The notes under the pieces were generated by a model. It made no database searches and was not told the origin of the DNA. It worked only from the letters and a program-made list of their open reading frames with translations. A stretch of 62,413 nt of DNA, counting the filler, from Choristocarpus tenellus KU-1152 (lineage: Eukaryota > Protista > Phaeophyceae): the NCBI GenBank assembly GCA_964200185.2. It is 12 parts of 12 records of this genome, joined end to end, with 100 filler letters (N's around TTAATTAATTAA, not from the genome) between each part and the next. Parts side by side here need not be neighbours in the genome. Positions count along the whole stretch, not along the records: positions 19,230 to 22,987 come from CAXNAD020018115.1; positions 23,088 to 26,400 come from CAXNAD020020877.1; 10 more parts are not named here. The stretch is one strand, 5' to 3'. Below, piece after piece: positions 15,327-55,098 of this stretch (positions are counted from its first letter, which is position 1; each line of letters starts with the position of its first letter). A program made the position numbers and the translations under genes.

Positions 15327-16693
15327 GTGAGGGAAATAATATGCAGTAGATTGGTGAATGGATGGAGGGTTGAACATTATTGAAGTGATGAAATCAGTAC
15401 TGTGTAGAGAGAGTACCAAATTGCAGGAGAATCACACTCAGGTTGAAAAAGAACAATCAAAACCTCCCAAATTCAGCATCAATATTCCCCTTCTTGAACA
15501 ATTTAATACAACTTTTGCATATATCAATTTTATATTGCCACTTCAGCAAATGTGAGCTGACGTACAAGAAGTTATGCAAGCTATTGCTGAAGAGGGTTAC
15601 ATATTGTAGGCCCTCAACCTATATAGGAACTCCTTTACCTAATTGAACTTGTGGTGCATGAGACTAACAGGAACTTTCCCCTCACTTCCTCTGCACGCAC
15701 ACCTCCTTCTGCTGTGGTCTACTGGGCTGTGGACACAATTCTTATGTTAAACCCTCTTCTTGTTCAATGCAGTCAGATACACCGACTTTTTGGCATGGTG
15801 GCACTTTGACCTTGATCAATAGATGTATAGTTTTGGTGATCCAAAGCTGGTCCCCTTTCCTTGACTTGAATTTGGAACAAAGAAATTTGACCCTGAGCAT
15901 GTCAACATAGGAAAGCACAGACAACTCTGTATGCAGATTTTTTTTTGTGGGAAGGGTACTTTTTCGCAATAACATGTGATGTGGGTGGGTGGATGTTGTA
16001 GTTACTTATTATTGCTGAACTGTGGCTGTAGCACACCAGCTGGTCAAGTGAAGCCCTAAAACTTGAATTCAGTGACTGTCCCTCTGGTAGTTGAGTTTCC
16101 TCAATGTCCATGACGTATGCTTGTTCCATGGAAAAGTGATAAATTGGTCATGTGTTATTGTGAGAATTTACGTCACTGATGGTGTATCAATTTCTTCATT
16201 TATTGTCAGGCTGTTGAGATGTTTTTTGGATGTAGTTCCAGGTGCTCTCTGGCTTTTGGTTGGGTCTATGTTATTTCCCCTACCTCCCCCCCCCCCTCCC
16301 TATCTGCTTTTGGGTTGTTCCCTTGTCACTTTTTTTTGTTTTTTTCTNNNNNNNNNNNNNNNNNNNNNNNNNNNNNNNNNNNNNNNNNNNNTTAATTAAT
16401 TAANNNNNNNNNNNNNNNNNNNNNNNNNNNNNNNNNNNNNNNNNNNNTTGAACAAAAATATGAAAATAGGGTGTATTGCACAGGGGTTACAAAAAAAAAA
16501 GATGCAACTGCAAAACAAGCAAAACATGTGCTCCATACTCTACCCCAAACCCTAAAATCTGAAACCACACTTGTTAGAATATGTACTCAAGGATATTTTC
16601 AGGAGAATAAAAAGAATACTACTACTACTACTACTACTACTACTACAAATAATAATAATAATAAGATTTATCAGGAGCATTTGTTCACTGCAC

Positions 16694-18455
16694 CTCCAGG
16701 ATGATCTGCATAGTCCGGACGGCCTATTTGAGAAGGGACCTGTCTCCAAGGTGTTCTTGCATGTGGACGAAGCTTCCCTGTGAAGGAGAAGCCTGAAAAC
16801 TCTCTCGGCATCCCCCTTTCATGTCGTGCATCAACCACACAGCGTCATACAACGGCATGACAGAAGAAGCATTGTATAGCAAGTCAATGCTCTCATCAGG
16901 AATATTGTTCCAACAAAGGGGATGAAATGGGGAAGGGTAAGCTCTGGTGGGGGCGAGCTTCCTCACAAATACAATCGCGCCAATATTTTAACTGGGGGGG
17001 GGAGGGGTGGTTAGGAGGAAAAGGGGCTTTCTTTAGCTCGGAAAAGGCTGCAGTTGCCCATAGCCGTACCACTAACCTAAGTTAATCTAAACCCTTTTTT
17101 CAATTGATGGGTATACAAGTCAAGGCATGCAAAAAAGGATGTTCCTGTACAGATGCAAAAAACGATAATGAAATTCCCAATGCATAGGATCAGGACTGCC
17201 TTTGCTCGTGCAAATCATGTCAGTATCAAAATAGAGATGGTTAAACCATATCCTTCCATGTTAGGTCATAGTCCGCTACTTGCGTTTCACTAAACAGCGA
17301 AATTGCAACATCTCAGCTCACCCCAAGACACTTCCCCCAGACATAATCTGCTTTGCCAGCTTATGCAGAGCCTTGTGCTGCGGCCAGTGGCCCTTGAAGC
17401 ACTCCTGTGCACCATTGTCATTCATTCGAAAGGAGGATTGCGGTGAAGGGGAGAGGGGTTACAAGGCACAACGAACATAGCTAGAGATAACGAAAGTCTT
17501 GCGATTCAGCTCGATTCGATTTGAGCTGTTGTATTATAAACACGACGCAATTGTCTGGGGATTCCGACAGTTATTAAGACAAAAGGGTTTGGGGGTTGGT
17601 ATATCTTTGTCGATGTGATTATTATGGGAGCAAAGTGCGTAGGGTGTGTTCACTGTAACGGTTTATTAACAGTCAGTTCATGAATACGAACATCTCAGTA
17701 TGGACTATTGCTATACATTGCTGGGCACCCGCGAAATTTTCTGTCTTCTAGAATGGGAGTTCAGGTTGTGTCACTCTCTACAGAGCAAAAGTGAGCATTG
17801 CCTTGCACTTGCTCCTGTTGAGAGGGAACAAGTAAGACGTGTCTTTCAAGCACATTAGGAAATGGTCGGATATTATGTCACACGCACCCTTTCCATGATA
17901 CTTGGTACTAGAAATGTGGAATATACCATTAAAATGTTATTTGAGGAGAACTCGCGATGTGAAACTCATCTCAACCCCCTTGAGTGTATCCATTGGCAAA
18001 GGCGAATTCGGGGCTGTAAATGTATCTACTGTGAATGTCAATGACAAAAGAAGCATACGAAATTGGTCTATCGTTAGACCTATGGTACGGCAAGCACATG
18101 TGTGAGAGATATGAGGGTGTGCACGAAAGGGCTTGTGTGATATAGTTGGCAAGGTGCAGGGCCTTGAGTACTTCTCTTCTGTGTGACCGCACTATCGAGT
18201 TCAAGTTGATATTCTGGGGTAGGTCAGTTAAGCTACCCTTGAACAATGTGACACGGTCGAAGTGCGAGATAGATGGGGATATAAGGGCGAGGCATCGCTC
18301 ATCTCGACGTAGAGGTATATGGTGGACACCTGAGAGCAGTAGCGGCTGGGAGGGAGTCTAAGCTTGATACACGTAGGGCAGGTCATCGAACCAGTCTTGC
18401 CACAGTTTGGAGTCTCGCAAATGCTGCTACGGGAGCTGGCATCCTTGGAAGACAT
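16694..18455 (-). CDS. METAP1: Methionine aminopeptidase 1, N-terminal zinc finger and linker (first three exons; catalytic domain beyond the gap)
   Basis: Exons 18330-18455, 17322-17404 and 16694-16815 splice in phase to [42 protein letters not shown]|[28 protein letters not shown]|[40 protein letters not shown]. This is the C6H2 finger plus the FTGxLRP...RPDYADHP linker typical of MetAP1. Confidence 0.93.
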
Positions 18456-19339
18456 GGTGCTCCAAGAAAAGAGCACACCACTGCAACTCGATGATGACGA
18501 TGACAGGAGCGATACGTGTTGTGTGAAGGGTTGGGAAGGTTCAATCGCGCGCTCATCAACCACATGCGCGCGAAACAGGTCTTTTGGAAAGTTAAAGTGA
18601 AGAAATAATTTGACACATATATTATTACCGTACAAATTGAACACCAACGAAAAGACCGACCTGGGGGGGTTTGAATATTACGTACTAATGTAGAACTTAC
18701 TTAGAATATCCGTAGGTTGGTTGTTGTACCACCATTAATACATGCTACTAATACATTTCTAAGAACCAATACCTCTACCTCCTACTATACCTACTATACC
18801 TGTGATTTTGTCCATCATATTTATTTATTTTGTCCATTACAGTACCTACCCCGATTTTATACTAACTATTATGAACCAAACCCATTTTTGTACCGCTTTT
18901 TTCGACATACAAAAAAAAATAGGCTTTTGTACCGGAGTTCTCGGGCGACTTGGTACAAACTCCCAGAGATTTTCACGCGAGTTTGGCGCGCGCGCAATTA
19001 TTTCTCGCGAAAAGTGCCTTTCTTCCTGGTAGGGGAATAAAGTGGAAGCCATGACTTGTGCCGCGCGAAACCTTTGCAAGATGCCTTCAAATACACCGTG
19101 TCCCCCTTTCTACACAATCCACAAGTGCCNNNNNNNNNNNNNNNNNNNNNNNNNNNNNNNNNNNNNNNNNNNNTTAATTAATTAANNNNNNNNNNNNNNN
19201 NNNNNNNNNNNNNNNNNNNNNNNNNNNNNGTGATTTGGTTGCATACGTCGGATGGAGACTGTAAATGAACTTTTCCTGATTTTGGTCCAAATGGAGACCC
19301 TGGTCTAGACCCCCCCTCCCCTCCCAGATACTTTGGGTC

Positions 19340-19770
19340 TTGGATATTCCGAACGATGCCTTGAAAAACTGCTTACAGACGGGAATGCTGGCCGTGAGCA
19401 TAGATCCGCCTCCAGGTCCCAACTTAACCACAGGTACACGGTCGCCAACGAAGTGCTTGGGATCGTGGCGGTTCTAACACGCCCGGATGATGTCCTGCTC
19501 TTTGGCCAATGTGCGTGCAAGGAAGGACTCGCTATCTGCCACGAAATTCTTCACACAGGCTAAGCACTTGCAGCAGTCACCCTGTTCGTTGACGGGGATG
19601 GGTTCAGCCCATCCTCGGCGAAGCTTGGTACCGGTCGCTGAAGCATCATTGGTAGAAAGCTCCCGCGCATCGTTGTTGGTGGGCTGGTGAGGGGGCAACA
19701 AAGGGGGAGACGCAGGCGACAAAAGCCACCCCCTTGCTGTGGAAGCAACTGTCATGCTGTTTTCGGGCAA
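19340..19770 (-). pseudogene. N-terminal segment of a Sola-type transposase, with one in-frame stop, cut by a family-B MITE at 19339
   Basis: ORFs 19474-19770 and 19174-19431 share a frame, giving ...GDCCKCLACVKNF...IIRAC*NRHDPKHFVGDRVPVVKLGPGGGSMLTASIPVCKQFFKASFGISK. A Cys cluster followed by VCxxFFxxxxGIS resembles the N-terminal region of Sola transposases. Confidence 0.65.
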
Positions 19771-19832
19771 CAGGTGGTCTTGGGCAGTGAGAAGGTCTAG
19801 GAGTGATTAGATTCGAAGGCGGGCGTATGAAC

Positions 19833-20775
19833 TTTATTTGAGCTCCGGGCTATCCGTGGGACCACCCTGAGATGAGCCAAAGTATCTTAGAGGGTAGAGC
19901 CACGTCCATTTGGGGGTCAAAATCCAATATTACGATCTTGATGTAATTTTGACTATCGTGTTTGTTAGGAAGTTTCAATATCTATGTTTCGGACACACGT
20001 TTTCATAACGTATACATTTTATCTACCCCTAAACATTTTGGAGTAGCAAAATGTAATAAAAATAAACATGGGAAGCCAACCCCCAAATGGACAAACAGGG
20101 CAAAACTTGTACCCTCTAAGATACTTTCACTCAGATCCATGATCCTGAAAATCCGTGCGTTATTTTTTTCGGAAGTTGTAAATCCGTACTTACAAATTTT
20201 TAAAAGTACAAATCACATACTTAATTGATACCGTACGTTTCCAATGTTCCGAAACCAAGTTTGTTTGAGCTCCTGCTATCTGTGGGACCACCCTGAGTTT
20301 CATGATCCTGAAAATCCGTGTATTACGGTTTTCGGAAGTTGTAAATCCGATTATATCCGTACTTTCTAATATTTTAAAATACAAAGCACATACTTAGTTG
20401 ATATTGTACGTTTCCAATATTCCGAAACCAACTTTGTTTGAGCTCCGGCTATCCGTGGGACCACCCTGAGATCCATGATCCTGAAAATCCGTGTATTACG
20501 GTTTTCGGAAGTTGTAAATCCGATTATATCTGTATTTACAAATTTTTAAAATACAAAGCAAATACTTAATTGATATTGTACGTTTCCAATGTTCCAAAAC
20601 CAACTTTGTTTGAACTCCGGGCGATCCGTGGGCTAACCCTGAGATCCATGATCCTGAAAATCCGTGCATTACGGTTATCAGAAGTTGGAAATCCGATTAT
20701 ACCTGTACTTACCATTTTTTAAAATACAAAACATACTTGATTGATCTTGTACGTTTCTAATGTTCAGAAACCAAA
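19833..20775. repeat. Tandem array of four units of about 172 bp (first unit split by a MITE)
   Basis: The unit start tttgtttgagctccggctatccgtgggaccaccctgagatccatgatcctgaaaatccgtg recurs at about 19833, 20260, 20433 and 20605. Confidence 0.92.
19874..20132 (+). mobile_element. MITE family A, 259 bp, TSD AGAT
   Basis: TIRs GAGCCAAAGTATCTTAGAGGGTA...TACCCTCTAAGATACTTTCACTC. AGAT at 19870-19873 and 20133-20136. The empty site ccctgAGATccatg is visible in neighbouring array units. Confidence 0.95.
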
Positions 20776-20849
20776 AGGTAAAAAAAAAGTGGCACCCTCT
20801 AATTTTTTGAAGTACAAAATCTTAAATTGTTGGGTATTTGCATTCTTCA

Positions 20850-21230
20850 AAATACTAGAGACGACAAAACGCGGTTCAATGGGTTTATCAGATCCGATCG
20901 GATCCGCTAAACCCTTGAACACCCAAAACACGTGCGTTAGGATTTTTAGAAATAGTAAATCCAGTAATAACCGTTCTTACTATTTTTGAAAATACTTAGC
21001 ACACACATTATGGGTCTCACACGTTTCCAATTTTCAGAAACTAAAGGGTCACTTCCAACTGATACCCACAATTTATTTAAATACTAAAACCGATTTTTGG
21101 CGACGTGAGTATTAAAAAAATAGTAGAGATGACAAAAAAGTGGATCTAGAGTTTTAAAGATCCGATCTGATCTTCTAACCCCTTGCAGACCCAAAACACG
21201 TGCGTTAGGGATTTTACGAAATAAGAATAA
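20850..21230. repeat. Degenerate direct duplication of about 100 bp containing a long palindrome
   Basis: tagagacgacaaaa...gatccgatcggatc...cccaaaacacgtgcgttagg at about 20856-20950 is repeated at about 21124-21220. Confidence 0.75.
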
Positions 21231-21281
21231 TATTCTAATCTTTATATCAACAAATACAATTACAAACCACATCCTTCATTG

Positions 21282-21540
21282 GAGCCAAAGTATCTTAGAG
21301 GGTAGAACCACGTCCATTTGGGGGTCAAAATCCAATGTTGTAATTTTGATGTAATCTTGACTATAATTTTTATAAGATGTCAATATCCTTGTTCCGGATA
21401 CCCTTTTCAATAGCGTATACATTTTACCTACTCCAAAATATTATTTTGGAGTAGGTAGAATGCCATTAAAAACATGTGGGCAGTTAAGCCCCAAATGGAC
21501 AAACAGGGAAAAAATTGTACCCGCTAAGATACATTCACGC
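21282..21540 (+). mobile_element. MITE family A, 259 bp, TSD ATTG
   Basis: Same TIRs and body; ATTG at 21278-21281 and 21541-21544. Confidence 0.93.
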
Positions 21541-21825
21541 ATTGATGATAGATCCAATACGTTTGAAACGTATGAAACGAAAAGGTCACAAAAAACTGTT
21601 ACTCTCTGTCTCTTTCCAATATGAAATCGTATGCTGCTCGATATTCGTATTTTTTATGACACAATTGTCAACGGAAAGACAAATCTGAGTTTTGAGGATC
21701 GACCGACCAGATGAAACAAAGCAGCACCTCCCATCCCTCAGTCCTCATTTCAATTCATTTCCTTCAGTACATACCACGTGCACCTGTTATTTATCGATCC
21801 CCGTCACACCCTCCCAACCTTCGCC

Positions 21826-22724
21826 ATGTCCAGCATTCTCTCAACAACAACCCGCCTGCCCGCCGATGGCGCTGCCCACGGATCAAGAACGTGGGACAGC
21901 AATCTGAAGGGCATGCCCTCGCTCCTAGAATATCACTACCTCGGCACGTACCAGATGAAACTCGGCAACATCATATGCACGGAGACGGTGTGTCCACTGA
22001 GCGAGCGTGGCCTTGCGCGCGTCAGCAAGTCTATCCACGAGAAAGGCTGGCTGGAGCAGTTTGCTCTGTCTGTCGTAATCCAGCGAGACTCTTTAGGTAA
22101 TGGGTACTAGCTTACCGCCGAAACTGCGCTTGCCATTCAAGGACGTACACAGGACGGAAACCATAGAATAACGGTGCTGAAGAGAGAGTTGATCCCGAAC
22201 GTGCTTTCATGATGCAGGTCTACATGGAGTTCAACCAAGCAGAAGAGAGGCTAATTGCCAATGGTGGTTGATGGAGTGTTGTCGTTGTTCCATGATCGCC
22301 TGACTATTCTGATCAACTAAGCAACAAAGTAAGTTGAGTGTTTTCGTTGTTCCACGAACGCCTGACGACTCTTCTGATGTACGAAGTTGTTGCCGAGTTT
22401 CCTTTGTTTGGTTCATCGTCAGTCGGCCCATTGAGGATCTTTTCGTTTTTGGTCTTTTTTATCCCTCGTGGTCTTTCTGTCCACAGCAACATGTGACTCA
22501 GCACTGCATGCCGCGTGTGTACCGCGACCGCTTCCCACCTAACCCTTGTCCCATTCGCCCACTGCACCGCCACGCTTATAGCATTCAATGACGCGACCGA
22601 GAGTGTGGTCGAGCGCGCGCTGTACGATAAGATATATTTTCAGCACGAGCTCAAAGAAGCTATCAAGCAACAGACGAAGAAAAAAGACGTGTCACTAATA
22701 GAGATCCACAAAATGTACAAAAAG
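21826..22724 (+). pseudogene. Spliced ParB/Sulfiredoxin-fold (ParB N-terminal-like) gene, disabled by a stop and a frameshift; 3' end lost at the gap
   Basis: From ATG 21826: ...PLSERGLARVSKSIHEKGWLEQFALSVVIQRDSLGNGY*LTAETALAIQGRTQDGNHRITVLKRE. DGNHR lies at 22153-22167, in frame past TAG 22108-22110. After a 1-nt frameshift near 22190 the reading is DPERAFMMQVYMEFNQAEERLIAN, then an intron (weak donor at 22264), then exon 22582-22724 AFNDATESVVERALYDKIYFQHELKEAIKQQTKKKDVSLIEIHKMYKK|gtgagg. The order helix-SI-x3-G, strand, DGxHR, strand, helix with N matches ParB/Srx. Confidence 0.7.
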
Positions 22725-23087
22725 GTGAGGGAGTTGTCAACGTTGGTGGGATGGTGGCACTCTACTCCTCCTCTAGTTGGGTTACAGCTGTTGTGAAATC
22801 TCTCTGTGTCCTCCTATTCAACCTAAGTTGAGATAGTTATCCCGCGTTTAGGAACCCTGTCAACCAACTTATTGATTTTCGGGTGACAATGTAGTATGTA
22901 TGTGTGGTTAACCACAGACGTACAATAAAAAGCGTCCTTGTTTGTTTTATCGACGGTGTTGCCTGAACCCCCCCCCCCCCCCCCCCCNNNNNNNNNNNNN
23001 NNNNNNNNNNNNNNNNNNNNNNNNNNNNNNNTTAATTAATTAANNNNNNNNNNNNNNNNNNNNNNNNNNNNNNNNNNNNNNNNNNNN

Positions 23088-26000
23088 ATGGGTCCGAAGC
23101 GAGACCTGGTGATGTCCTGGATAGACTACTGGGCTGATACATACGGGCAGTTCATGCATCACAAGTCAACAATTGTGATCTACGCCGCGAACAAACAGGT
23201 CGGTTTTGCCCTTAGTTGTGGAGAGGTTGGCTGCACCCTGTGTTGGAGTTAGATGCAAACCGTGTGACCCGGCAGTACGTAGAAAAGGTGGATCTAAGTA
23301 GTATTTCGAGTGGTGGATGTTCATTACCTTGACCAGTTTGATATTATGGTTAAAAGAACATGTCAAGATTCCTACAAAGTGCTATCTTTTTTGTTTGCTA
23401 TGTCAATATATCAATATTCATTATAATACTCGTTGTCGATTTTACGAAGGAAGACACAATAAATGTTATTTCAACGCCGAGCACGCATACTCTGCGGCCC
23501 CAGGCCCGGTCTGAAATTGGTAGGAAAAGTGTGTACTTCGTATGTCCAAAGCGCTTCGCGATGATGATGATGACGGTAGATTCGCCTCCTTTGTCGCCTC
23601 TGCAAACGGCAGCGAGGCCCGAACCGAATGACGCTCATGGCAGATTTAATCAGATTGTTGTATCTGCTCTTTCGTAACGCACAATGCAAGCTTGCTTGAT
23701 CATGTCTTCGGTGTTCTTGGTCAAATTATAGGTCAGCCCGCCTTCGAGAGATGTTGCAGGGGTGTTCTTCGAGTGTTCCTTCTCAATACCTCCTCACTTG
23801 CCCACACAACCAACATTTTTAATTAGGAGCTATACAAGGATTTTTGCAAAGAGGCAATACGGGTGTATCCTGACGACCCTTCCAAGCGGGTAAGCAAGGA
23901 GTACTTCCTCCGATTGCTAAGAGAGGACAGGCCCAACATCCGGGTGAGGGTAGGAGGCGAGTTTATGAAATGTGACATATGTGTCACGTTAAAAGAGAAG
24001 CGGCACGGTGCGCCTGGTGTAAAACCCATGAACGACTCCACCGTCCTCGAGTCCATCGATAAGAAGCTGTCAGACCATCGACAGGTAGGTGTCCAGTGTT
24101 AATTTTGCAACAAGGGTACAGTGACAACATGTCATCGTCATTGCCCTCTGTTTTGAAGTAAATCCGTATCCTTTTGCGAATGAAGACTCCCACGTAGGTA
24201 TTTGTGGCAGCAGCAGCAGTAGCCTCACTCACCACAAAACTTGCTGTTATTAGCTGCCCAAACATCTTGTAAGACAGACTGCCTCCTGATAGTGTACCAC
24301 GGGCTGTGGGAGGGACAGGTCATGTAGTGGTCTTCCGGCCCGGTACGTGCGTACTTCCTACCATCCCGATAACTTGGTGTTTGTCTTGAACGCAGCAATA
24401 AAGAACATATCCCAATACAAACATATATTGTTACCCAGACTACATTTTGTTAGTAACCCTAACCTGATACGTGTTAACAAGTGGCACTTTTTTTTTAAGC
24501 TTTGAGCAGATTTATTTGATTAATTGACGTGATGTTGCTGTCCCCCATTCGCCAGATTATCCAAACGGATCGGCTGGTCATCACCAACAGCACCAGCAAC
24601 GCCATGCGGGCCAAAGCCGACGGTAAACCTCTCGGCTTCGTGTTCATGTCCGTAGGCGCCGCGAACCAGACAGCACACTCCCTCCCAGCACTTTACCCAC
24701 CTAACCACGGCGGTGACAGGTAACCACACGCACGCCTAGTCCATCCAACAAGAACTTTGCAGCCGCACACGGAACAGAATAGACGACCATGTTTTATTCT
24801 ACGGATGAGTGCAAAGTTCCAAGAAATAATCGCCAAAACAAAAGTACATACTTCCACTACCTATTCAATTCATCATGATGACCTTTCTTTAGATGTTCCT
24901 TTCGTTCATGTCCCCCTTATCAGGGGCTACTCCGAGCGCCAGAAGATCATGGCCGCACACGTCGAAGGCCAGTTCGCGGAGGTGTTCTTCACTCCTATCA
25001 ATCTTGGAGGAGGTATGTACTGTAGAGTAGCGTAAGAGCTAACCAATGGGTAGTGGAGATCGTAGACATGTACATCACCGTATGGGTGTATGTCCTCTAC
25101 ATTGCATAAACAAATTACATTACCCCTCTTATTAGCTCCAAACAAACAATTCGTAAATGAGCAGAGTACTTTTTGCCAACAGTTGTTGAACATCATTGTT
25201 CGCGCAGGTTGTAACCTTGTCTGCACAGCCCCCCACCTTGCCCTCACAAGGCTTATCAACAAGTACCGCAACAGCCTAGATGACTCGGGGAATTGCATCA
25301 TTCGGCACGCGCATTGGCAGGTAAGAAGGTTTCATCTTGACACGACCTACTCAACACATACTCGCTGAATACCAGTCACCAAGTAACTAACTGCACGGTC
25401 TTTAGTTTTGGTTTGTGTATTGCAACCTGCATGTATTATGGCGGTGATGTAGAGATTGCGCTCTAGCAATACTGGAAACCTACCCTGTTCCTCCACGAAA
25501 CGCGGCGAAAGGGGCTGACATATTGGCCTCACGCCCATCCCTCCCTCGCTCCCAACTCTCCCAACTGGCCAGGTCGACAACTGCGTCTCAGAGAACAAGA
25601 ACAATTTCTTTCTCAGATACGCGGGGCTGTTGTTTGCGGCGAGTGTCATTCATGTGGTCGAGATACATTTTATGACGGTGGGGCACACACATATCAAAAT
25701 CGATCAGATCTTCTCCAGGTAATTAGGCAAGATATGCAAGTTCGATAGCCACATATTGTTATTCTATGGACAGATACAGCCTCGAGTCTTGCAGCTCACG
25801 CTTGTTGCATTCCTGGAAGGTTAATGGTCGTACGCTGTAATCGATCGATTGGCTTTTGATTTCCCCACAACGAAATTTAACGATAAGAGCAGCTGCCAAA
25901 ACTGTTTCTTAACATACCCTCGAAACAAAACAATGAAAAAAAATGCACGCATCACCCAATTGGTATATTGATTTTTCCATATACATGCATCAGAGCATGT

Positions 26001-26400
26001 CCCTGCATATATATCCTGCTTATCCATTTCGCTTCTTTCGCCCCCGCCTCGAAATTAACTTGCTTGCGTTTCAACTTCAGGTTCTCACGTGGAATAAAAG
26101 GCGAAAACATATTCACAAGAACACAGCTGGGTGAAGAGCTGCAGGCCTCCTACACGGAGGTTCCAGTATACTACAAGACCCTGCGGAACGAGGGCAATTT
26201 CAAGGGACTCCTTGAAGGTCGCATCAACCGTGTCCCCAACATCACGAGCTACAGGACTTTTCGCGTTGAAAAAGGCGGTGATGGGCGGGTGAAGGTTAGC
26301 GTAAAGCGATACATGCACAGCGCCGAATGGAGTGGGATAGGCGGAGACCTTGCTATCGACCCCAACGCCCCTCCGCACGACCTCTTCATCGGCCACCCGC
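23088..26400 (+). mobile_element. Intron-containing Sola-superfamily DDD transposase (central and catalytic region; probably inactive)
   Basis: Seven phase-consistent exons: 23088-23198, 23827-24084, 24556-24719, 24924-25012, 25208-25320, 25573-25718, 26081-26400. Motifs: WIDYWADTYGQFM, SKEYFLRLLREDRPNI...FMKCDIC, and WQ|VDNCVSENKNNFFL...HFMTVGHTHIKIDQIFSR, matching the Sola-type QxDNCxxENKN...GHTHxxIDQxFS. The first acidic site reads SVGAANQ where DxxDQ is expected. Confidence 0.85.
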
Positions 26401-31804: not shown

Positions 31805-33903
31805 ACCAGTGCACACAGTAAAAAAGATATTCCTTCCCCCTGGCACGGAAACGCTTGTTCCAGTTTGTTCTCAGGCACTTCGAGGAACAGCTACCGATGC
31901 AGTGGTGGAACCTATCATTTACACTGGCACAAACCTCCAGCACGAGGACGACATACATCCCCACTGGCAACACATAATAGTCAGTCGTACCCTCACTGTT
32001 GGGGAAGAAGATGGAGGATGTCTAGTCAAAATTGCCAATTTGTCACAAAAAGGGATCAAGTTGCCAGCTGAGTTTGTAGTTGGTCATGTTTCCCCTGTAT
32101 CAAAAACATATGCCTAATCAGACACAACAGTAAGTGCAGTTGCAGCCACACCATCTACCCCTGAAGAACTGAAACAGGCTAGGGAAGAATTGAAGTTGGT
32201 TTTTTCTAACAAGGCTTCTACAAATATTCAACTGACACTGTCTGAGCAAGAGGAATTACTAGATGTAGTGGCTAAATTCAGACCAGCCTTTTCATTGTCC
32301 GAAAAAGAATTAGTTTGCTATACCACTACTTCTCTTAACTTTCTATTACAACCAGGCACTAAACCTGTTAGCAGACCACCGTATCGCACGGCACCAAAAA
32401 TACACGACTCTATTCGACAATGCGCAAATGATATGGAGAATCGGGGTATTATAAAACCCTCATCTAGCCCATGGGCATCCCCTGTTACCATTGTTGCCAA
32501 ACCAGACGGATCACCTCAATTCTGTGTGGATTTTAGAGGAACCATAAATAAACATTTGATACGTAATTCATGGCCTTTGCCATCCATGGATGAGTGCTTA
32601 TCCATGTTGGGGGGTTCAAAATATTTCTCTTGTTTAGATATTCAATCAGCCTACTGGCAACTACCAGTCACTGATGAATGCGAACGACAAAAAACTGCCT
32701 TCATCACGCCGGATGGGAAATATGAGTTTCAGAGGATACCATTTGGAGTACAAAATGCACCTTGGATATTCCAACGCTTTATGTCTGAAAGCTTTTCCAG
32801 TATCGGTCCTAGCTCAGGGTTGTTGATATAGACGATATTGTTTTAGCCTCTCCGTCATGGACACACCGTAAACAGTTGATCACTACAGTTCTGTCACTGT
32901 TACAAGATGTAGGGGTGATGTTAAAGCCGTCCAAGGCTCAATTTGGCTCAAAACAAATCCGTTATTTGGGACATGATGTTAGCCCACAAGGAATTGCTGT
33001 ATCCCAAGCTCGTATTGAAGCTATATTAGAGATGCATCCTCCTCAAACTGTGAAAGGCTTGCAATCGTTTTTAGGTTCAATGAACTTTGTTAGGAAGTAC
33101 ATTCCCCACCTAGCAACAGCAACAGAACCGTTGGTTGAATTGATTCGCCATACACAAAAAGTAAAGTCACACAAAGAGTTCACTTCAGTAAAACGAGCAA
33201 AGAAAGACCACAATGATATATCACCTAGATGGAATCGACCACAACAAACTGCTTTTGATGAATGCAAACGAATGTTATCAACGGCTCCAGTGCTACACTT
33301 TCCTGATTTTTCTAAGGAATTTTTTATTCATGTAGATGTCAGTAATGTTGGGACAGGGGCGTTTTTAGCACATAAAAATGAAGACCATTTTGATATAATT
33401 GCATACCATAGTGCCTTACTTTCCCCCTCCCAACATAAATATTCAGCCACACAAAAAGAGTGCCTTGCTGTTATTCTGACAATCCAACATTGGAGACCAT
33501 ATATTTGGGGTAAACATTTCACAGTTATCACTGATCATTCAGCCTTACGGCGGCTGCATACGATGCAAAGTACGTCCAATCTGTTAACTCGATGGGCCTT
33601 AGCTTTGCAAAGTTTTGATTTTACCGTCCTTCATAAGCCTGGAAGATTACATTACATCCCAGATATGTTGTCACGTCCTCAACTGGAAGAATGCTGTAAA
33701 CATGAATCTGAACCAGCACCCCTAAGCCCTATATGTCGAAATGTGGGTACAAAAACCACTGATGCAAGTTCTCAAGCAAGTAAGGTGTAGCCTGCCTATG
33801 AATTGTCTGTGGATCGACTAGGTGAAATCACTGAAGTGGCAAGTGACTCCGAGCTCTTTGCAAGCTCCATCAATGTGTTCCCTGTAGACAATAATACGGA
33901 AGT
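31805..33903 (+). mobile_element. Ty3/Gypsy LTR-retrotransposon pol remnant (RT and RNase H), pseudogenised, integrase absent
   Basis: RT motifs SPWASPVTIVAKPDGSPQFCVDFR, DIQSAYWQ, KTAFITPDGKYEFQRIPFG. The YxDD codons are frameshifted at about 32828 (ttgatatagacgat). RNase H motifs HVDVSNVGTGA, YSATQKECLA, TDHSAL, RWALALQSFDF. Stops at 32115 and 33788. Confidence 0.95.
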
Positions 33904-34159
33904 GAGTGAAAGTATCTTAGAGGGTACGAGTTTTGCCCTGTTTGTCCACTTGGGGGTTGGCTTCTCAATAATTCTTTTATGACATTTTCTTAGTCCAAAA
34001 TGTTTAGGAGTAGGTAAAGTGTACATACTTTATGAAAAGGTGTGTCCGAAACATACTGACGTTTCCTAACGAATTTGATAGCCTAATTTACATTAAAATG
34101 GCAAAATTGGATTTTGATCCCAAATGGACACGGCTCTACCCTCTAAGATACTTTGACTC
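33904..34159 (-). mobile_element. MITE family A in reverse orientation, no TSD
   Basis: GAGTGAAAGTATCTTAGAGGGTA...TACCCTCTAAGATACTTTGACTC; flanks are AAGT and GAGC. Confidence 0.92.
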
Positions 34160-35874: not shown

Positions 35875-38800
35875 CTGAGGTTGAGGCGCGTGAGAGTGGT
35901 GTTTTCTCTCATCCCCTCCATGAGCATCCGCCCCCCCTCGTCTGTGAGGCGGTTCAGGCGGAGGTTGAGGTCCACCAGTGACTTGTTGGTGCGGAGAGCG
36001 CGCCCAAGGTACCTTCCCCCCTCTGCATGAACCTGTTTTCATGCCCAGAGGGGGGCAACTGGAACGTTTTACGGCTCATGGTTGTAGTGGGATAACTGAG
36101 CCAAAGCTAAGCGAGAGGTATGCTATGCAGGTTTTGACCGTTTCTGTTTTGAATTTTTTTTAAAGTAATTTCTTTTTGTCTTTAAAAAAAAATCGTCTAC
36201 AGTTCCCCCATATTTTCTTCTATATATGGATTAAGCGCTCTAGTAGGTTTTGTTTTGTTTTGTTTTTGACTTGTGAGAGACGTTGATATTTCTCCGTTGT
36301 TTTAAAAAAAGAATTCGACACGATTCAGAAAAATATCCTTCAAATGTTTGAAAAAAAATATAGGTGAACTTTTTTTGTGCATATTTTTTTAATTTATCTT
36401 TCGGCATCTTTAAAATGAAACTTTGTCTACCTCTTATTGAGGAATGAGGAGTGGAACAGTCTGAGAAGGGGGGTCGGTTTCGGCGCTATTGCCCCTTTGA
36501 AGGTGTTTTTGGATCATGTGAGGTGACCCGAAGCATTTAAGAAGTTAGGAGTTTTGCCGTGTTTGTTTGTTTGGGGTTTGGGGTTTGGGGTTCCCACGTT
36601 TTTTTTATATGCCCGGTTTTCGTTTTTCTGTTTGAACACAGTTACCTAAAATTTATACCACTATGAAAGGTGTGTCCAGAGCAAGGATATCGACACTTGC
36701 TAACAAACACGACAGCCAAAATTAATCAAAATCGCGACATTGGATTTATCTTGGACCCTAATCAGACACGGCCCTACTCTCTTCAATGCTTCGACTTAGG
36801 TATACACCATGTCCATGCCTGAAATGCTGTTAAGAGCCCCCTTAGGAGTGTGTGTCTATATAGAAGAGGAGATTAGGTTACGAACACGTCGCATTAGCTG
36901 AAAGCGCCCTCCACAATTGCTCAAAACACTTCAAACAGGAGACGGTCATGGGAGAACTCAACTTAATATCCTCTTCTTAGAAGGATTCCTCTAACTAAGG
37001 CGCTCTAATAGATGCGTAAAATACTCTATATACTCCGAAACATCCCCGAAAATTTGAGACCATTAACACCTCAAAACAATACACCGAACTTCAAGAGGGG
37101 TCACAAGGTAGAGAAATCTGGAGCTCTGGAGCTCTGGAGCTCTACAGAGCCGTACCCTTTTGTTTTTATATGTGATGGCGTGATCTTTCGAATAGTAGTA
37201 CCAGATTCTATTTTGGTGTAACTCGAAGCTTGTGGCAGTTAAATAGCAAAACAGAGTATCGTTTCCCTTATATTTAATGTTTGGAAAAACGTGGTCCTCA
37301 GGTAGTGACTGCTCTCGAACAATCACGAGAATTTTCTCCTATCTCTTCTGCACAACTACCCCAAACCGTGCGTTATTTCGTTTCATATTTGAACACACGA
37401 ACAAAAGGGAATGCCTTGATTCTACTAGGTTGATCTCGACCTCCAGTTTTACCTTGAACTTGACTACGATGTTGATTTTGGAACACTAGTAACCCTTGAA
37501 GTACGAATTTGCAACAATATTTTACCGACCAGTCTGATGGTTTGTCTTGAAATGCATAAAAATCTATCAAGCTTGTGCTTGAACCACTAAGAGTAGAGCA
37601 AGAAATTGTACCCTGCTTTAAGGCCAACAAACACACACACACATGTATATACTTTTGTGAAAAAAACTTTGCAGCAAGAAACCCTTGCATTTGTTAATAA
37701 AGATCCTGTGCTTTACGTCGCCGCTCACAAAAATATTCTGGCTCCTGGCACTTCACACCTTGGCTGCATAGAGTCTCTTCAAACCATATTCATACATAGA
37801 TATATTATATATATATATATTATATACAGATATATTATATACAGATATATTATATACAGATATATTATATACAGATATATTATATACAGATATATTATAT
37901 ACAGATATATTATATATAGATATATTCATACATAGATATATTATATATAGATATATTATATATAGATACAACCCTAGGTTCTTCGCCATATTCGTGGAGA
38001 TAGATTCATCTGAACACACACCCACATGCTCCAGAGTGTATGTCTGTTCAAATTGTTTCAGAAACTGATCAAGTACTAAAATATGCGGATCGTGACTAAA
38101 ACGAAGGTATTCTGGGTTTGTGCCGGGCATATGCATACATACATACATAATACATACATACATATTTGTGTATCCTCCATGAGCATGATTGAGCAGAAAA
38201 ATATACTGGAGTATCTATTTATTCCCCAGCCTATCCTCAACCCGACCCACTTAATCCCTCTGTAACTAACACACTGTACTTGCCTGATTATCCGCCATGT
38301 TGAGGCTCACTAGCACACTCCTCTCACCCAAGAGTTTGGATAGCAGACGTGCTCCTGTCTCAGATGATATTGGGGTTTGTTGGGTTGGAATTGATGTTGC
38401 TGGGAAGGCAGGAATTGAGTTTGATTGGGGGGGGGGGCTATGAAAGGAATCGGGATTGCAGTCTTTGATGTGGGTGCTTGGTGTGTGTGGAGCAAGAGTG
38501 ATGTGTGCCAAAGAACATTCAGTTTTGTAACACTCTAAAGCTGGCCATCCTATACCCTGCCCTCTTGCCAATGAAGTACAGGAAGATCTGGTGGTACTTC
38601 AAAGTGGTGGGCTGGCACTGCCTTACTGGGCCTTTGCTGTTGATTGTATCCAACCACTTACCATTTGTGTTGGAGGCCCGAATCCTTAGTCACTATTATT
38701 CCATCAATCATGAACAAAACAAAAAAATCCAAAATTGAAAAATGCTGTTTAAGAATCCCCCAAAACTATTACACTCCATGACCTGTATCCCCACTTTTCA

Positions 38801-48247: not shown

Positions 48248-51200
48248 GACCTACGACAGAGCAAGCAAAACAACGGCAAACCAGGCAGGCAAGAGACAGG
48301 GTGGACTGTTATAAAGCTGCCAATGGCCAGTCCGTACATAGTAGCAAGGTTGGCGACGAGATCGATGGAAAAAGGAAACTGTGGAAGAGGTGTCACTTGC
48401 CGTTCGGTCGGACCGCTGGTCGATGTGGTCAGACAATGATCTTGAGTCCATCCCAACCACAATGTGATCGGCAAGGGGATTCAAGAAGGATCTGACAGTG
48501 GGCATTGCACACGCAGTGGGGGAGAATATCCATGGTAGAGGTGTGCAGGTCGCGGCATGAGCACTCGCTTAGCCTGACATGCGTTGTCCAACCCATGGGC
48601 TGCCTTGGTGTCAATAGGGTAGACAATAACACTCCATGCATAGCAGGAAGGTGGAAGGAGAGGATAACATTTTGTGTACATAGCATACACTTGATATAAT
48701 AGTGAGTAGGACAGTTCTGACCTAAGTTAGCGAAGAGATCAGATGCTTCCTATTACAATGTTAGTATCAAGAGATGTGTCAAGGGCGCAGTGCAGAGGAT
48801 TGTGTACAGGTCATTGGAAAATAACTCATTACTGATGTTCGAATAGGTACGGGGGTCTCTTCAATATACTTACACGACCTATTCCTTTAAATGAATGATT
48901 CTGTACATTACATTACATCACATCAAGTAGGGTATAGACAATACGAGTCAGAGTCCTTCGATTCGTAACCGCCACCGGCTCTAGAGCTCTCCATCTCCAT
49001 TTCCGTCTCCCTCTGTGTGAGCACTGTACCTCTTTGTGTGTGTGTGTGTCTTCGTCGTGTGTGAAATATTGACCACCTACTCAACCTCCTACAAGCGGTG
49101 GTGGTAGTAGTACTCTCTTTTCGGTGTGATGGCGGATTCTTGATTCCTTAGTAAAGACGGTGGTGCAGTAATCGTACGTGTATGCCTGTCGTGATGACTG
49201 ACACAGGACTGAAAAGCAAGTTTCATCGTCCCCATCCTCCTGCGGAAATTGCAGCAGCAGAAAGATAGTAGAAGGTGTCCACTAGATTCGCCTTTGCTTG
49301 TGTTCACTTCGATTCCTTTTTGCTTGGACTTCGCCAGGTGTTTCCTGGCAGAAAATACCAGTATTGTAGGTGCCCATATTATAAACTATTACTTGCACGA
49401 GACGTGTCAGCTTTGATTATCATCTTCTCACCATGTGTAGGAACACTGATACGTTGAGAGACAAGGCTATGGTGTGGGAATCAACCTGGGATGGGCAATG
49501 AAATTCAAAACATGTCAAAAAAGGTTTGTCTTGTTGAAGTACACTTACATCTCTTACGAGGCAAGTGTAAGGAAACACACATGGCACTAACGTAACTTCT
49601 TGAGTGCATTTTTAATACATGAGCACAAACGTGCCTGACATTGTCTTTCTCCTTAATCCATGAGTGAATGCGTTTGTTGTCTATCATTCAACACACTAAG
49701 AAAGATTTAGAAAAGTAGAACAAGTCCAGGTATTGAAAACACAAACATGGTTGTGCCACACTTCAGTGAGTCTCTACTTAACCCTTATCTAAGCCACATG
49801 GAAAAGACAAAGCAAGTTATCATGTCCCTGTGAATCAAGAGCAAGAGCAAAGATATTAATTGTATGTAAACTTCAGGCGATCTTTTTTTCCCAGTACTTC
49901 ATTCAATTCAACTTCAATTTGGTGTTCAGTAGTCCAACAAGTGAAAAGAAGGGGGGTGATTATACTATATTGCTGTGGTGAAGCGCAAGGGGTTGCGGAA
50001 TCACTGCTGACTCTCCCAGTAGTAGACTACAGTATCCAAAATCACCTCGGTAGGATTGCTCATCCTGTCCTTACGTGTGAAAGCTCATCGCACTCAATTT
50101 CCTTTCAATCTGGTAGAAACTATAGGAACTGACAGAGAAGCGGTCTCAGGACTGTCTAGAACAACATGCACAGCACTGTATATATAGTAGCTTTTCATGG
50201 TCACTGCTTCATCCTGAAGGTGGTGCAGGCATTACACATAGTCTACTGGGCGCACAGCTCTCCATTCATATAGGGTGGGCTACCCAATGAACAAGAAGTA
50301 CCCAAGAGGATTGAATGTCAGAAGAATTAAAAGAAAGGAGAGCAACAGAGTTATACCATCTCACAGGGCGTGATGAGTTTACAGTGCTCTGATGAGGGAC
50401 GACTGGTTGTGGCACACGTATTTTGAGTGCTATGGAGGGTATATTCAGGAAACAATGATATGCTCGCAGCTAATCTTCTCTACAGCCATACCGCACCCAA
50501 TAAGCGGGGGTTAACTGCAATTCAGGCACGGGGATAGTACATATTGCACAAGGTTCAAAAAGACATTGAAACTCAAAAGGGTCAAAATCGACCCCCCTCT
50601 AAGATACTTTCACTCACGGTCATACCAGTCATATGCTCAAAGTATCTGGGGGGGGGGGGGGGGGGGAGCCGCGTTCCTGTNNNNNNNNNNTAGACTATTT
50701 TCCTTCCGGGCACTACAGGTAATATGGCAAGGGTGGGGGGGGGGGGGGGGGGGGGGGGTAGCCGCTGTCCATTTGGAGTAAATTTTTTCATGTCGCGATT
50801 TTTTGGGTGATTTGGTTGCATACGTCAGATGGATAATGTAAGTGCACTTTTCCTGGTTTTGACCCAAATGGACACCCTGGTGTAGACAGCTCCCCCCCCC
50901 ACAGATAATTTGGGTCGTATCCTTCTTCACCTATGCAACCATGCGACAAATCACATCAAAACACACTACTCATCACAATAGCAGCATATATTCGCACTAA
51001 AACTCTCTCCTCACTCCCCCTAAATTCACTGCAGAGATGGTGCCATATTCGGTCCTATTTTCTCCAACACCTACCTGAGATGTGTCTGTCCCAATCCATG
51101 ACACCAGAGGTACACGAATACAACCACATCACGATAAATATTGTGTGGGTAGAGCTACCAATCGCCTCATCTACACCTACATCAATAGAATCAGCCCATG

Positions 51201-52189: not shown

Positions 52190-52424
52190 AGAGCAAAGTA
52201 TCTTAGAGGGTAGAGCCGCCTCCATTTGGGGATCAAAATACAATGTTGTGATTTTGATGTAATTTTGNNNNNNNNNNNNNNNNNNNNNNNNNNNNNNNNN
52301 NNNNNNNNNNNTTAATTAATTAANNNNNNNNNNNNNNNNNNNNNNNNNNNNNNNNNNNNNNNNNNNNATGTTGTGATTTTGATGTAATTTTGGCTATCGT
52401 GTACCCTCTAAGATAGTTTCACTC
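52190..52424 (+). mobile_element. MITE family A spanning a gap, internally deleted on the right; a further 3' fragment lies at about 50575-50615
   Basis: Left TIR at about 52190; right TIR taccctctaagatagtttcactc ends near 52424. The 25 bp atgttgtgattttgatgtaattttg occurs on both sides of the spacer. Confidence 0.8.
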
Positions 52425-54918
52425 TTTAAGAATACAAATGTCCAACAATTTCAGATTTTGTATCTCAAAAAATTGGAGGGTGCCATTTTTTTTTACCTTT
52501 TGGTTTCTGAACATTGGAAACGTACAAGATCAATGAAGTATTCCCATTCAAAAAGGGGCCTTTAAAAAGAGCCGCAATATTTACAAAAAAAAACATATCG
52601 GCACTTTTTCCGCACCATTTTCAGTCAAACCATCCTCAATAATAGTACGCTCCATCCTTAATTTTTTTAATCCACTGTTGGATCCTTATAATGCAACCCT
52701 ACCCATCTCTCAGATCGTTCGACTCATCTGACAAAAGTTAAAATTGTGCACGCGTAGCTAGCTTCTTGTGAGAAGCAACAGTATCTGTCTTCTTGAAGTA
52801 TGTATCAAAGAATTGCACGTATGTAACACTGAGTATGTGCTAAGTACTGGACACAAATATGTTTTTATTTGTGTTAGTCAGAAATATGTCCACTCAAAAG
52901 GTGGATGTTACAGTGTTGTAGTCAAGACTTGGGTGAGAGAGATGTAGTCAACTTGCCTACACCAGACCTTGAATGTACGTAGCTGGATGAAGCGCAGCAC
53001 AAGACTTCCTTTCTCTACAGCAATTCGGGACATTATCATTGAACCCCCCCTTCCACACCTCGTAATTGATATCGAAGCATCAAGTGAGACAATTAGAATA
53101 ACACCAGATACACTCAAGAGCATATTACACATCATGATAATGAAGGTATCATCAATAGCTATCGCTAGTTGCGAAGTGGTGGATGTTTACACCTATTGTC
53201 CAACACTCCCTTCTTCCCTTCCACATGCCATCCAATGATTTTTCCAAACGTTATTGACACCCCTGGCACTGCCCAACTGTGCTACTCGGGCACCTCCCCC
53301 CTCTGCCCCATTCCTGCCGATGTTGCTGGAGTGCAGGGAATTCTAGTTGGTGGAGTTTCTCTTCCTCTTTCCCCTGCAACCACAGTTCACACATCACCCC
53401 CTGTACCTTTCTGCTGTGTTGCTGGAGGACTGTGGGTACTACTTCGGACAGATACTTTCTTCTCTTTTTCAACCTGATAGTTTCCGGGGGGTTTTAACCA
53501 GGTACACATCCCCACAGCCCCTTTCCTCCTGGAGCTGTTTGAGTACTGTGACTACTGACTAGGAGAGCTTCCCTTCGCTCTGTTCTCCCAGGCACGGCCC
53601 TCTCCCCTGTTACCCACACATACCTCTGCGTATGTGAGAGTCTTCGAATACTCCATCCATGTCATAAAAAGTCGGCAGTAGCCCACTATGGTTGTTGCAA
53701 GTGAGACACAGGAATACTTCACAGGATTGTCGCAATATGCTCCTCTAGGCGCACAAAATTCTCTAGAAGGGTGGAATGCTGGAGTCAAGATGCAAAGAAA
53801 TGAATCAAACATGAAGTGCAGGGATAAGGCGCACAAGAGGGTATAGTTGCATTGGACACCCAGGAGAAAAGAAAGAGCACCTGCGCCACATGATAGATAG
53901 TCAGAGGGACAGACATCAACAAAACAGTAAGACAAATGGAGCGCAGACCACACTCCCACCTCGGTCCTTCTCGTGACGTAACTAGAGTGCAGGAGCACTT
54001 GACCGTGGATGTCACAGATAGATCCCATCAACATTTTCAGGTGCAATGAAGCCCTTATCCCCATGTTGTAGCCCATTTCTATTGTGAGGAAGTTGGGTGC
54101 AACAGCAGTCTTCATCGAAACAATTTTCTGTGGAACACACTTCCTCACACCTCAGCAGGGCCATCATCGCGATGGGGACAATGAGCGCTGACAGAGGGTC
54201 AAATAGTGCCAGCCAGACCCTGAAGAAGATAGGTCACCGAGTTTATCAAATGTCAAACCAAATCAAATATCCCTTAGGGATTCTCAACGAATCTTGAGGG
54301 TTGTATGTAGTATAGTGTTGCTAAAGAGATTGCACAGGATGCCTTTGTTTTGACGTAGGGGGCGACATCTAAGAAGCTATCAATAGAAACATTGTTCTAA
54401 TCAGTAGTGCGAGACTCTGAACTAAAAGAGTCCCCTACCCTACTTGCTGGTGAGGAATGTGTGTAATTGCTAGTTAGTAGTAGCAAGAGCTTTAATATAG
54501 GAGTATTTTGGTATGTATGGGATCAATTGCTTCCCTTCAACCAATGGCACACACACCAACACCCCTCTTGCATGGCAAGCACTACAGATTGTAGACGTGT
54601 ACTATCCTATTCATATATGTCACCACACTACAACAAGAACAGACCGAAAACGAGGTAGGAACGCTTCATTTGCCAAGCGATGCTGAGGTGGTGGATCCAG
54701 CACAAGGTTTAGGGGAGGAGACTGAGTGACATGCAGTAGAATGGCTAATCCCAAAGTGCAAGAAGCAGGGCACAAAAGGAGGCAGTACGATTTATTTTTC
54801 TTGCAACAGTAGCAGTTAGCATGAGAGGTGTTGCAGTGTGCAAATGCAGTGTGTAGTACCTCTGACCACGGGTTGGGATAGTCAGTCCTCAGACTACAGT
54901 GAAGATAATATTAATAAT

Positions 54919-55098
54919 GATCCAAAGTATCTGGGGAGGGGGGGGGGGTCTACACCAGGGTGTCCATTTGGTCCAAAACCAGGAAAAGTGCACTTTCATT
55001 GTCCATTCGACGTATGTAATCAAATCACACAAAAATCGCAACATGAAAAAATTGGCCCCAAATGGACAGCCGCCACCCCCCCCCAGATACTTTGAGCC
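54919..55098 (+). mobile_element. MITE family B, 180 bp, poly-G/poly-C subterminal tracts, TSD TAAT
   Basis: GATCCAAAGTATCTGGGG...CCCCAGATACTTTGAGCC; TAAT at 54915-54918 and 55099-55102. Other full or partial copies at about 5779-5851, 19229-19339, 26501-26532, 34972-35008, 44663-44724, 44825-44865, 50634-50916, 56774-56973, 57082-57159 and 62343-62413. Confidence 0.92.

What the first reader, a model, noticed from the sequence alone, without database searches (positions are those of the whole stretch)
19340..26400. Candidate new element: a Sola-type DNA transposon carrying a divergent, spliced ParB/Srx-fold gene with a repeat array between the two genes
Seen: on one ungapped contig (19229-22987), a Sola-like transposase N-terminus (minus, 19340-19770) and a ParB-like gene (plus, 21826-22724, DGNHR) point away from each other. 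About 2 kb separates them, holding four repeats of about 172 bp and a duplicated palindrome. The rest of a Sola transposase follows the next gap. Both genes carry a few lesions (stops, a frameshift, a substituted catalytic Asp), and part of the spacer recurs elsewhere in the window. Established: ParB/Srx domains are mainly prokaryotic nucleotide-binding modules (ParB CTPases load at palindromic parS sites; others accompany DNA methylases and conflict systems), and Sola elements are usually described as encoding a transposase only. Inference: this is one two-gene element whose accessory ParB-fold protein may act on the internal array or accompany a DNA-modifying domain lost in the gap. I do not know of a described Sola plus ParB arrangement, but novelty is unverified, and element ends are not visible.
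Basis: partly seen in the sequence, partly recalled or inferred. Interest (0 to 1): 0.88.

Follow-up and report, generated by a model that had tools for sequence, protein, structure and literature searches.

The report
Brown-algal Sola transposon with ParB gene
This is a damaged copy of a multi-copy brown-algal jumping gene that carries a bacterial-type ParB-fold gene beside a row of six palindrome-bearing repeats, which the protein likely binds to control or mark the element's own DNA; a Sola transposon with a ParB gene was already published for Ectocarpus in 2025.

Summary
The spliced gene at 21826-22724 has a ParB/Srx fold, with homologues in four brown-algal orders. The transposase at 23088-26400 has seven exons and a DUF7869 core, and is 74% identical to an Ectocarpus subulatus protein. 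Both genes and the spacer are multi-copy. The pairing is published: Sola1-1_Ec32 carries an opposite-strand ParB + N4C/N6A methyltransferase gene (PMC12477816). This scan also found Sola + ParB elements on other DNA. Corrections: most of the spacer DNA that recurs elsewhere is two nested 259-bp MITEs with 4-bp TSDs, and a third MITE cuts the N-terminal ORF. [quoted passage not shown] Added here: six units share one imperfect palindrome at 163-268 bp spacing, and GATC is enriched. This copy's methylase exons and both element ends are missing. New member of a known kind.

The parts
19230..19339 (-). End of a G-tract MITE (terminus GACCCAAAGTATCT) that cuts the N-terminal ORF; the rest is lost in the gap
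   Evidence: 80-85% matches at 50807-50916, 54919-55028 and 57082-57155; termini listed
19340..19770 (-). Probable transposase N-terminal exon (CCKC...VCKQFFKASFGIS), one internal stop
   Evidence: ORF seen directly; multi-copy; Sola identity rests on recalled motifs, no database hit
19830..20774 (+). Four 172-173 bp tandem units, each with the imperfect palindrome AAAATCCGTG-n-TTACGGTTTT (degenerate in unit 1)
   Evidence: units 2 and 3 fold better than 100 of 100 shuffles, unit 4 does not (27 of 100 as good); unit 1 was not folded
19874..20132 (+). 259-bp MITE (GAG...CTC ends, 23-bp TIR) nested in array unit 1, TSD AGAT
   Evidence: TSD; the empty site CCTGAGATCCATG is intact in units 3 and 4; five full copies in the window
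20775..21281 (+). Two longer diverged units (269 and 238 bp) with the same motif plus a GATC-rich palindrome at 20891 and 21159
   Evidence: hairpin 20860-20940 z = -3.85, second copy z = 0.15
21282..21540 (+). Second 259-bp MITE of the same family, TSD ATTG
   Evidence: 7, 7 and 6 contigs in the three runs join 21280 to 21551, skipping about the MITE's length
21826..22263 (+). ParB/Srx-fold gene, exon 1 (stop at 22108, frameshift near 22188)
   Evidence: 76% identical to P0001 over 121 aa; fold from homologue model
22582..22724 (+). ParB gene exon 2 (helical region leading into the predicted HTH); later exons lost at the gap
   Evidence: 81% identical to P0001; no further exons found in the window by tblastn
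23088..26400 (+). Sola-type transposase core, 7 exons: 23088-23198, 23827-24084, 24556-24719, 24924-25012, 25208-25320, 25573-25718, 26081-26400; first catalytic Asp is Gly at 24655-24657
   Evidence: DUF7869 E 7e-18 and 4e-6; collinear with P0058, 74% over 378 aa, 0 stops; spliced joints in run X3

Best explanation
This is a decayed, MITE-interrupted and fragmentarily assembled copy of a multi-copy brown-algal transposon, likely of the Sola1 kind published as Sola1-1_Ec32, in which a spliced ParB-fold gene faces away from a probable transposase 5' exon across a six-unit palindrome array. Shown: the fold, the exon structures, the array, the nested MITEs, many divergent copies, and spliced transposase joints in one run. 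Inferred: the contig 19230-22987 is inverted in the scaffold or comes from a sister copy; intact members encode ParB domain + HTH + a C-terminal DNA amino-methyltransferase(-like) domain, as in Ectocarpus; the HTH binds the repeated palindrome between the two divergent promoters, the ParB domain dimerises or clamps with a nucleotide, and the enzyme domain marks nearby element DNA (GATC is the candidate), so that the element regulates or shields itself. I put the identity at about 0.8 and the self-binding-and-marking mechanism at about 0.4. This copy cannot work alone (stop, frameshift, lost catalytic Asp).
For: Fold: AlphaFold model of homologue P0001 from a 39-row alignment, pLDDT 88-98 over residues 11-120; the top four rows are PadC Z 9.7 (rmsd 2.6, 99 aligned), KorB 8.9, pNOB8 ParB 8.7 and Srx 8.1; all 6 Foldseek PDB hits at E<=0.001 are ParB or Noc. 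Family: 51 hits (one, P0046, is spurious); the window groups with C. tenellus, Undaria, E. subulatus and Sphacelaria rows in a 99/97 clade. Both genes have E. subulatus homologues. Repetition: all 30 bins covered in all three runs for both contigs; the stop (22108) and the Asp-to-Gly change (24656) are read as the intact base at all listed depth. Contigs from divergent copies tile from the array to the ParB start, and no element end shows between the genes among the rows displayed. Motif: six homologous sites spaced 163, 173, 173, 268, 268 bp and none elsewhere in the window at <=3 mismatches. GATC: 5 observed against 1.0 expected in non-redundant units, reached by 2 of 2000 shuffles, the only enriched one of 16 palindromic 4-mers. 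Precedent.
Against: The N-terminal ORF and the core are on opposite strands across a gap. No full-length homologue covering the N-terminus was found; P0058 starts downstream of it. No second locus with both genes could be fetched (no genome; empty). No methyltransferase exon is in the window. The only homologue with a methylase-like tail (P0003) scores under 0.8 in the Atlas, has no Pfam methylase hit and shows no DPPY-type motif; P0001 and P0002 end without one. The frame-restoring insertion at 22188 is shown for only about 5% of depth in X1 and X2. The palindrome is weak in unit 4 and in the last unit. The array motif was drawn from the array itself. No contig listed bridges the N-terminal ORF to the array start. 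Sequence homology to Sola1-1_Ec32 was not tested.
Confidence: 0.7

Rival explanations
1. Same element, but the accessory protein is a DNA-binding repressor or loader without methylase activity (absent or dead enzyme domain); it controls the divergent promoters by occupying the array.
For: P0003's tail has SIG where a DPPY-type motif would be expected (my reading; motif recalled) and gives only sub-threshold methyltransferase leads. P0001 and P0002 gene models end without such a domain. The model also matches the repressor KorB.
Against: The Ectocarpus element's 1104-aa protein is reported with a methyltransferase domain. The homologous gene models are short and probably partial (contigs of 3-9 kb where given). 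GATC is enriched in the array.
Confidence: 0.3
2. The ParB contig and the transposase contig are unrelated repeats placed side by side; the ParB gene rides on another or non-autonomous element, and the minus-strand ORF is not Sola.
For: Strand conflict across the gap. Other linkers do not always join continuous DNA: MetAP catalytic motifs are absent beyond the left neighbour gene, and same-type MITE ends face each other at 44725. ParB-type accessory genes move between transposon superfamilies in red algae. No hit for the N-terminal ORF.
Against: The ORF ends in the C...F...GIS pattern that I recall preceding the W..YW...G..MP block that opens the next contig. One linker has a 25-bp overlap of its flanks, so the scaffolding is at least partly real. 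The published Ectocarpus element has this gene pair. In run X3 the ORF has exon-like depth (7,900-12,400 against 70-490 over the array; a weak hint, the tool warns against ranking by depth).
Confidence: 0.15
3. The two-gene element is real but the array is a by-product of local tandem duplication, with no binding role.
For: The units are 85-93% alike and so recent; the palindrome is decayed in several units; the second GATC hairpin folds no better than shuffles; A/T-rich DNA gives many short inverted repeats (26 pairs).
Against: The motif persists in the longer units, which are only 49-64% like the short ones. Inverted-repeat arrays lie beside the ParB gene of red-algal Plavaka elements.
Confidence: 0.3

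Closest known systems
Sola1-1_Ec32 of Ectocarpus sp. 7 (PMC12477816; passages, part 1 of 2 of section 5, and supplement rows read; its FASTA supplements could not be read)
   Same: Brown-algal Sola-type transposase plus an opposite-strand accessory gene with a ParB-like domain; nested insertions and dead transposases are described as common in these giant elements; self-binding and self-modification are proposed there.
   Different: That element is complete (21,549 bp, AACCG-CGGTT ends, 282-bp TIR, 1104-aa protein with a methyltransferase domain) and has 2 intact copies. Here the ends and methylase exons are missing and copies are many. Its supplement calls the gene 'Ectocarpus specific', whereas the family here spans four orders. 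No internal array is mentioned in the parts I read. Direct homology is untested.
Plavaka (EnSpm) PAG3 of Bostrychia moritziana (bioRxiv 10.1101/2025.02.11.637652; passages read; supplements closed)
   Same: Transposon accessory gene with an N-terminal ParB-like domain next to tandem arrays of inverted repeats, proposed to bind and modify its own element.
   Different: Red alga, EnSpm transposase, 2OG-oxygenase instead of a methylase, three accessory genes.
Chlorophyte/chytrid ParB-HTH + Dam fusions and phage ParB-terminase methylase loci (PMC4738411; passages read)
   Same: ParB-type DNA-binding module joined to an adenine methylase, of phage or bacterial origin.
   Different: Not described there as Sola cargo; no sequence link tested (no phage tblastn match).
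Bacterial ParB/Noc/KorB/PadC and sulfiredoxin
   Same: ParB/Srx fold followed by a helical DNA-binding region; G-x-x-R kept in 41 of 53 family members.
   Different: 8-20% identity; DGNHR instead of the GERR box (recalled); no ParA found; no Pfam ParB hit in any of 39 members.

Membership tests
Sola DNA transposons | DDD transposase | tested here: met
   DUF7869 hits; FMSIDA / VDNC / HTHxKID triad in P0058, first Asp lost only in this copy. That DUF7869 is the Sola core is recalled; the DDD definition is from PMC10741241 (passage).
Sola DNA transposons | Terminal inverted repeats and 4-bp TSD around the element | not testable with these tools
   Both ends fall in or beyond gaps; no genome is held.
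Sola1-1_Ec32-type two-gene elements | Accessory gene with a ParB-like domain | tested here: met
Sola1-1_Ec32-type two-gene elements | Accessory gene on the strand opposite to the transposase | tested here: inconclusive
   Opposite to the probable N-terminal exon on the same contig, but on the same strand as the core across the gap.
Sola1-1_Ec32-type two-gene elements | C-terminal N4C/N6A methyltransferase domain | tested here: inconclusive
   Gene cut by the gap; homologue P0003 tail gives only leads under 0.8 and no Pfam or NCBIfam methylase hit.
Sola1-1_Ec32-type two-gene elements | Sequence homology to Sola1-1_Ec32 and AACCG-CGGTT termini | not testable with these tools
   The two FASTA supplements cannot be read; DGNHR is absent from the 5 readable files.
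ParB/Srx superfamily | ParB/Srx alpha-beta fold with G-x-x-R loop | tested here: met
   Z 9.7 to PadC over 99 residues; motif census; weak PHROG ParB hits in a few members, best E 2e-4.
ParB CTPases of ParABS partition systems | GERR box, CTP clamp, ParA partner, parS loading | tested here: inconclusive
   37 of 53 members read DGNHR and none GERR in the census (box recalled); no ParA among 146 flanking ORFs scanned; nucleotide binding not testable.
MITE / non-autonomous TIR element (259-bp family) | Short, non-coding, TIRs, TSD, many copies | tested here: met
   23-bp TIR; TSD perfect in 2 of 5 full copies, one mismatch in 1, absent in 2; hundreds of distinct flanks at its ends.

The most novel reading that the evidence does not exclude
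Sola1 elements with a ParB(-methylase) gene are an old lineage found across brown algae, not an Ectocarpus oddity, and this family shows their cis-site: a parS-like palindrome repeated at 173 bp (about one nucleosome repeat, by recall) plus a GATC cluster between the two divergent promoters. The protein would load there as a nucleotide-gated clamp and write 6mA/4mC on the element, a private epigenetic system in a lineage that has largely lost host DNA methylation.
Probability: 0.25. Interest if true: 0.6.

Novelty: new member of a known kind. Interest (0 to 1): 0.3.

Why it matters
The gene pairing is in print, so this locus is no discovery. It does add two testable things. First, the ParB family spans Discosporangiales, Sphacelariales, Laminariales and Ectocarpales (order names recalled), while the published note calls the Ectocarpus gene lineage-specific; this holds if the two are homologous, which I could not test. 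Second, it supplies a defined candidate binding site and a candidate methylation motif for the untested idea that algal transposons bind and mark themselves. Most brown algae lack DNMT1, which is kept in Discosporangium (bioRxiv 10.1101/2024.02.19.579948, passages), so an early-branching genome with many copies is a good place to look for element-restricted methylation.

Tried and rejected
No genome is held, so loci with both genes could not be counted. Related-locus scans found nothing in metagenome, viral or prokaryote collections. Pfam gave no ParB hit for window pieces or 39 family members; PDB sequence searches gave only chance hits; no phage tblastn match. A single-sequence fold of P0001 failed (pLDDT 35). 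No RNA holder is listed; X3 is read as RNA-like only from its spliced joints. No spliced ParB joint is among the rows shown (682 joints not shown). Profile comparison of the N-terminal ORF with the transposase alignment was empty, as expected since those proteins lack the N-terminus; no Atlas result exists for that ORF. The original Sola paper was not held, so subgroup termini are recalled. A six-frame Pfam scan of the left flank was not obtained; 146 flanking ORFs were scanned instead. Rejected: the GAG...CTC termini in the spacer as element ends (both ends and TSDs of each MITE are present, and empty sites exist); a GATC-N4-6-GATC pattern as special (2 found, 2.25 expected); the DrmE_C and GmrSD_N Pfam hits (below cut-off). 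Literature searches; none showed a description of this Choristocarpus-like family or its array, but closed supplements may hold one.
Full report
What the sequence shows. The region spans two contigs separated by 100-base linkers. Contig 19230-22987 holds, left to right: 110 bp of a G-tract MITE end, a minus-strand ORF (19340-19770, one stop), a 2056-bp spacer and a plus-strand two-exon gene. Contig 23088-26400 holds seven plus-strand exons that read as 400 codons without a stop, hit DUF7869, and match E. subulatus protein P0058 at 74% over 378 residues and C. tenellus proteins at 87-90%. The first catalytic Asp is Gly here. The closest named homologues of both genes are from Choristocarpus tenellus, so the window is most likely from an early-branching brown alga (inference).

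The ParB gene. The window exons are 76-96% identical to the intact homologue P0001. Further named homologues come from Undaria pinnatifida, Ectocarpus sp. CCAP 1310/34 and Sphacelaria rigidula. A search of 1.84 billion representatives gave 51 hits; I dropped P0046 as spurious, leaving 53 family rows with P0001-P0003. DGNHR is present in 37 of 53. A tree of 52 rows (51 of the 53, two too short, plus the window) puts the window in a 19-row clade at 99/97 with the C. tenellus, Undaria, Ectocarpus and one Sphacelaria row. Pfam does not recognise the family, but structure does. A model of P0001 residues 24-380 from 39 rows is confident over the first 120 residues. Its best matches are PadC, KorB, pNOB8 ParB and sulfiredoxin at Z 9.7-8.1, and ParB/Noc fill all six Foldseek hits at E<=0.001. 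The Atlas and the viral library agree. The C-terminal part is not in the window. P0003 ends in a stretch that resembles the start of a methyltransferase, but the support is below threshold.

The spacer. Two 259-bp elements with GAG...CTC ends and perfect 4-bp TSDs sit at 19874-20132 and 21282-21540. They are nested MITEs: the empty site is intact in other array units, and contigs in all three runs skip the second one. They account for most of what recurs elsewhere in the window and are not ends of the large element. Without them the spacer is four 172-173 bp units followed by two longer diverged units. All six carry a related imperfect palindrome at spacings of 163, 173, 173, 268 and 268 bp, found nowhere else in 62 kb at up to three mismatches (the pattern was drawn from the array, so this shows locality, not function). 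Units 2 and 3 fold better than all 100 shuffles; unit 4 and the last unit do not; the 269-bp unit is borderline at 6 of 100. The longer units add GATCCGATC(G/T)GATC. GATC is the only enriched palindromic 4-mer in one short plus one long unit (5 against 1.0; 2 of 2000 shuffles).

Copy number and activity. Three runs of one study were laid. Every bin of both contigs is covered by many divergent contigs. Outside MITE-dominated bins the summed depth in X1 is about 3,700-100,000, against 18-40 for 7 of the 8 single contigs listed; this suggests hundreds of copies, although the tool warns that depth is no copy number. The stop and the Asp-to-Gly change are private to this copy at all listed depth; the frame-restoring insertion is shown only in a minority. 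Run X3 alone has GT..AG joints across four transposase introns, plus loose ends matching the neighbouring exons at two more, so some members are transcribed and spliced, assuming X3 is RNA (not on record). At least four ParB and five transposase gene models are named from C. tenellus.

The weak link. The N-terminal ORF points left while the core points right, so as scaffolded they are not one gene. Flipping contig 19230-22987 gives ParB leftward, array, N-terminal exon rightward, MITE, gap, core, which is the expected order. I put an inverted contig at about 0.5, two sister copies at about 0.35, and unrelated repeats at about 0.15. The linkers are not fully reliable: one has a 25-bp overlap, another joins same-type MITE ends. 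No retrieved protein covers the N-terminus, so its assignment rests on recalled Sola1 motifs, position and depth.

Comparison with what is known. PMC12477816 (passages, part of section 5, supplement rows) describes Sola1-1_Ec32, 21.5 kb, with a gene on the strand opposite to the transposase for a 1104-aa ParB-like + N4C/N6A methyltransferase protein, and proposes self-binding and self-modification. The Bostrychia preprint (passages) reports ParB-domain PAG3 beside tandem arrays of inverted repeats. PMC4738411 (passages) covers ParB-HTH + Dam fusions. PMC13076208 (passages) and the brown-algal genomes preprint (passages) give the host methylation background; PMC4455052 and PMC10741241 (passages) give Sola definitions. 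Eight unreviewed notes of this scan describe Sola + ParB-methylase elements with palindrome rows in plant genomes; they are leads only, and they prompted my search for a phased motif. Look-ups by sequence and by place found nothing.

Verdict. A real, multi-copy transposon with a ParB-fold accessory gene; a new member of a published kind, seen here as a broken and incompletely assembled copy. The most likely mechanism is self-binding at the array with self-marking by a methylase domain; every step of that is inferred. Interest 0.3.

Noticed in passing
window 16674-18455, minus: Start of a host gene with a zf-C6H2 domain (Pfam E 1e-7) that looks like methionine aminopeptidase 1 (recalled); its catalytic motifs were not found in the window.
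   Followed up: partly
window 32118-33787, plus: Retrotransposon pol fragment, RT and RNase H with a frameshift, followed by a 259-bp-family MITE at 33904-34159.
   Followed up: no
window 5851, 19339, 26532, 35008, 44663, 44865, 50634-50916, 54919-55098, 57159, 62343: A second, G-tract MITE family shares the subterminal motif AAAGTATCT with the 259-bp family; one full copy has TSD TAAT. The two probably use one transposase; their ends differ from the AACCG ends of Sola1-1_Ec32.
   Followed up: partly
window 52425-52541, minus: A 118-bp piece of the array junction (20733-20850) at 91% identity, next to a shortened MITE.
   Followed up: partly
eleven linkers, e.g. 19130-19229, 22988-23087, 52268-52367: 100-base gaps with TTAATTAATTAA in the middle; one has a 25-bp exact overlap of its flanks, ten have none. 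Contig order and orientation may be unreliable.
   Followed up: partly
window 12064 and 15262, plus: Cys-rich repeats resembling EsV-1-7 domains (pattern recalled).
   Followed up: no
window 23195-24921: Run X3 has a GT..AG joint that skips two transposase exons: possible alternative splicing.
   Followed up: no
window 22274-22386: About 50-bp tandem duplication (80% alike) inside ParB intron 1; it folds no better than shuffles.
   Followed up: partly
window 19830-20601: Three units contain TGGGACCAC, which resembles half of the F-plasmid sopC site (recalled); the other half is absent, so probably chance.
   Followed up: no
window 37777-37987: 15-bp AT-rich minisatellite.
   Followed up: no
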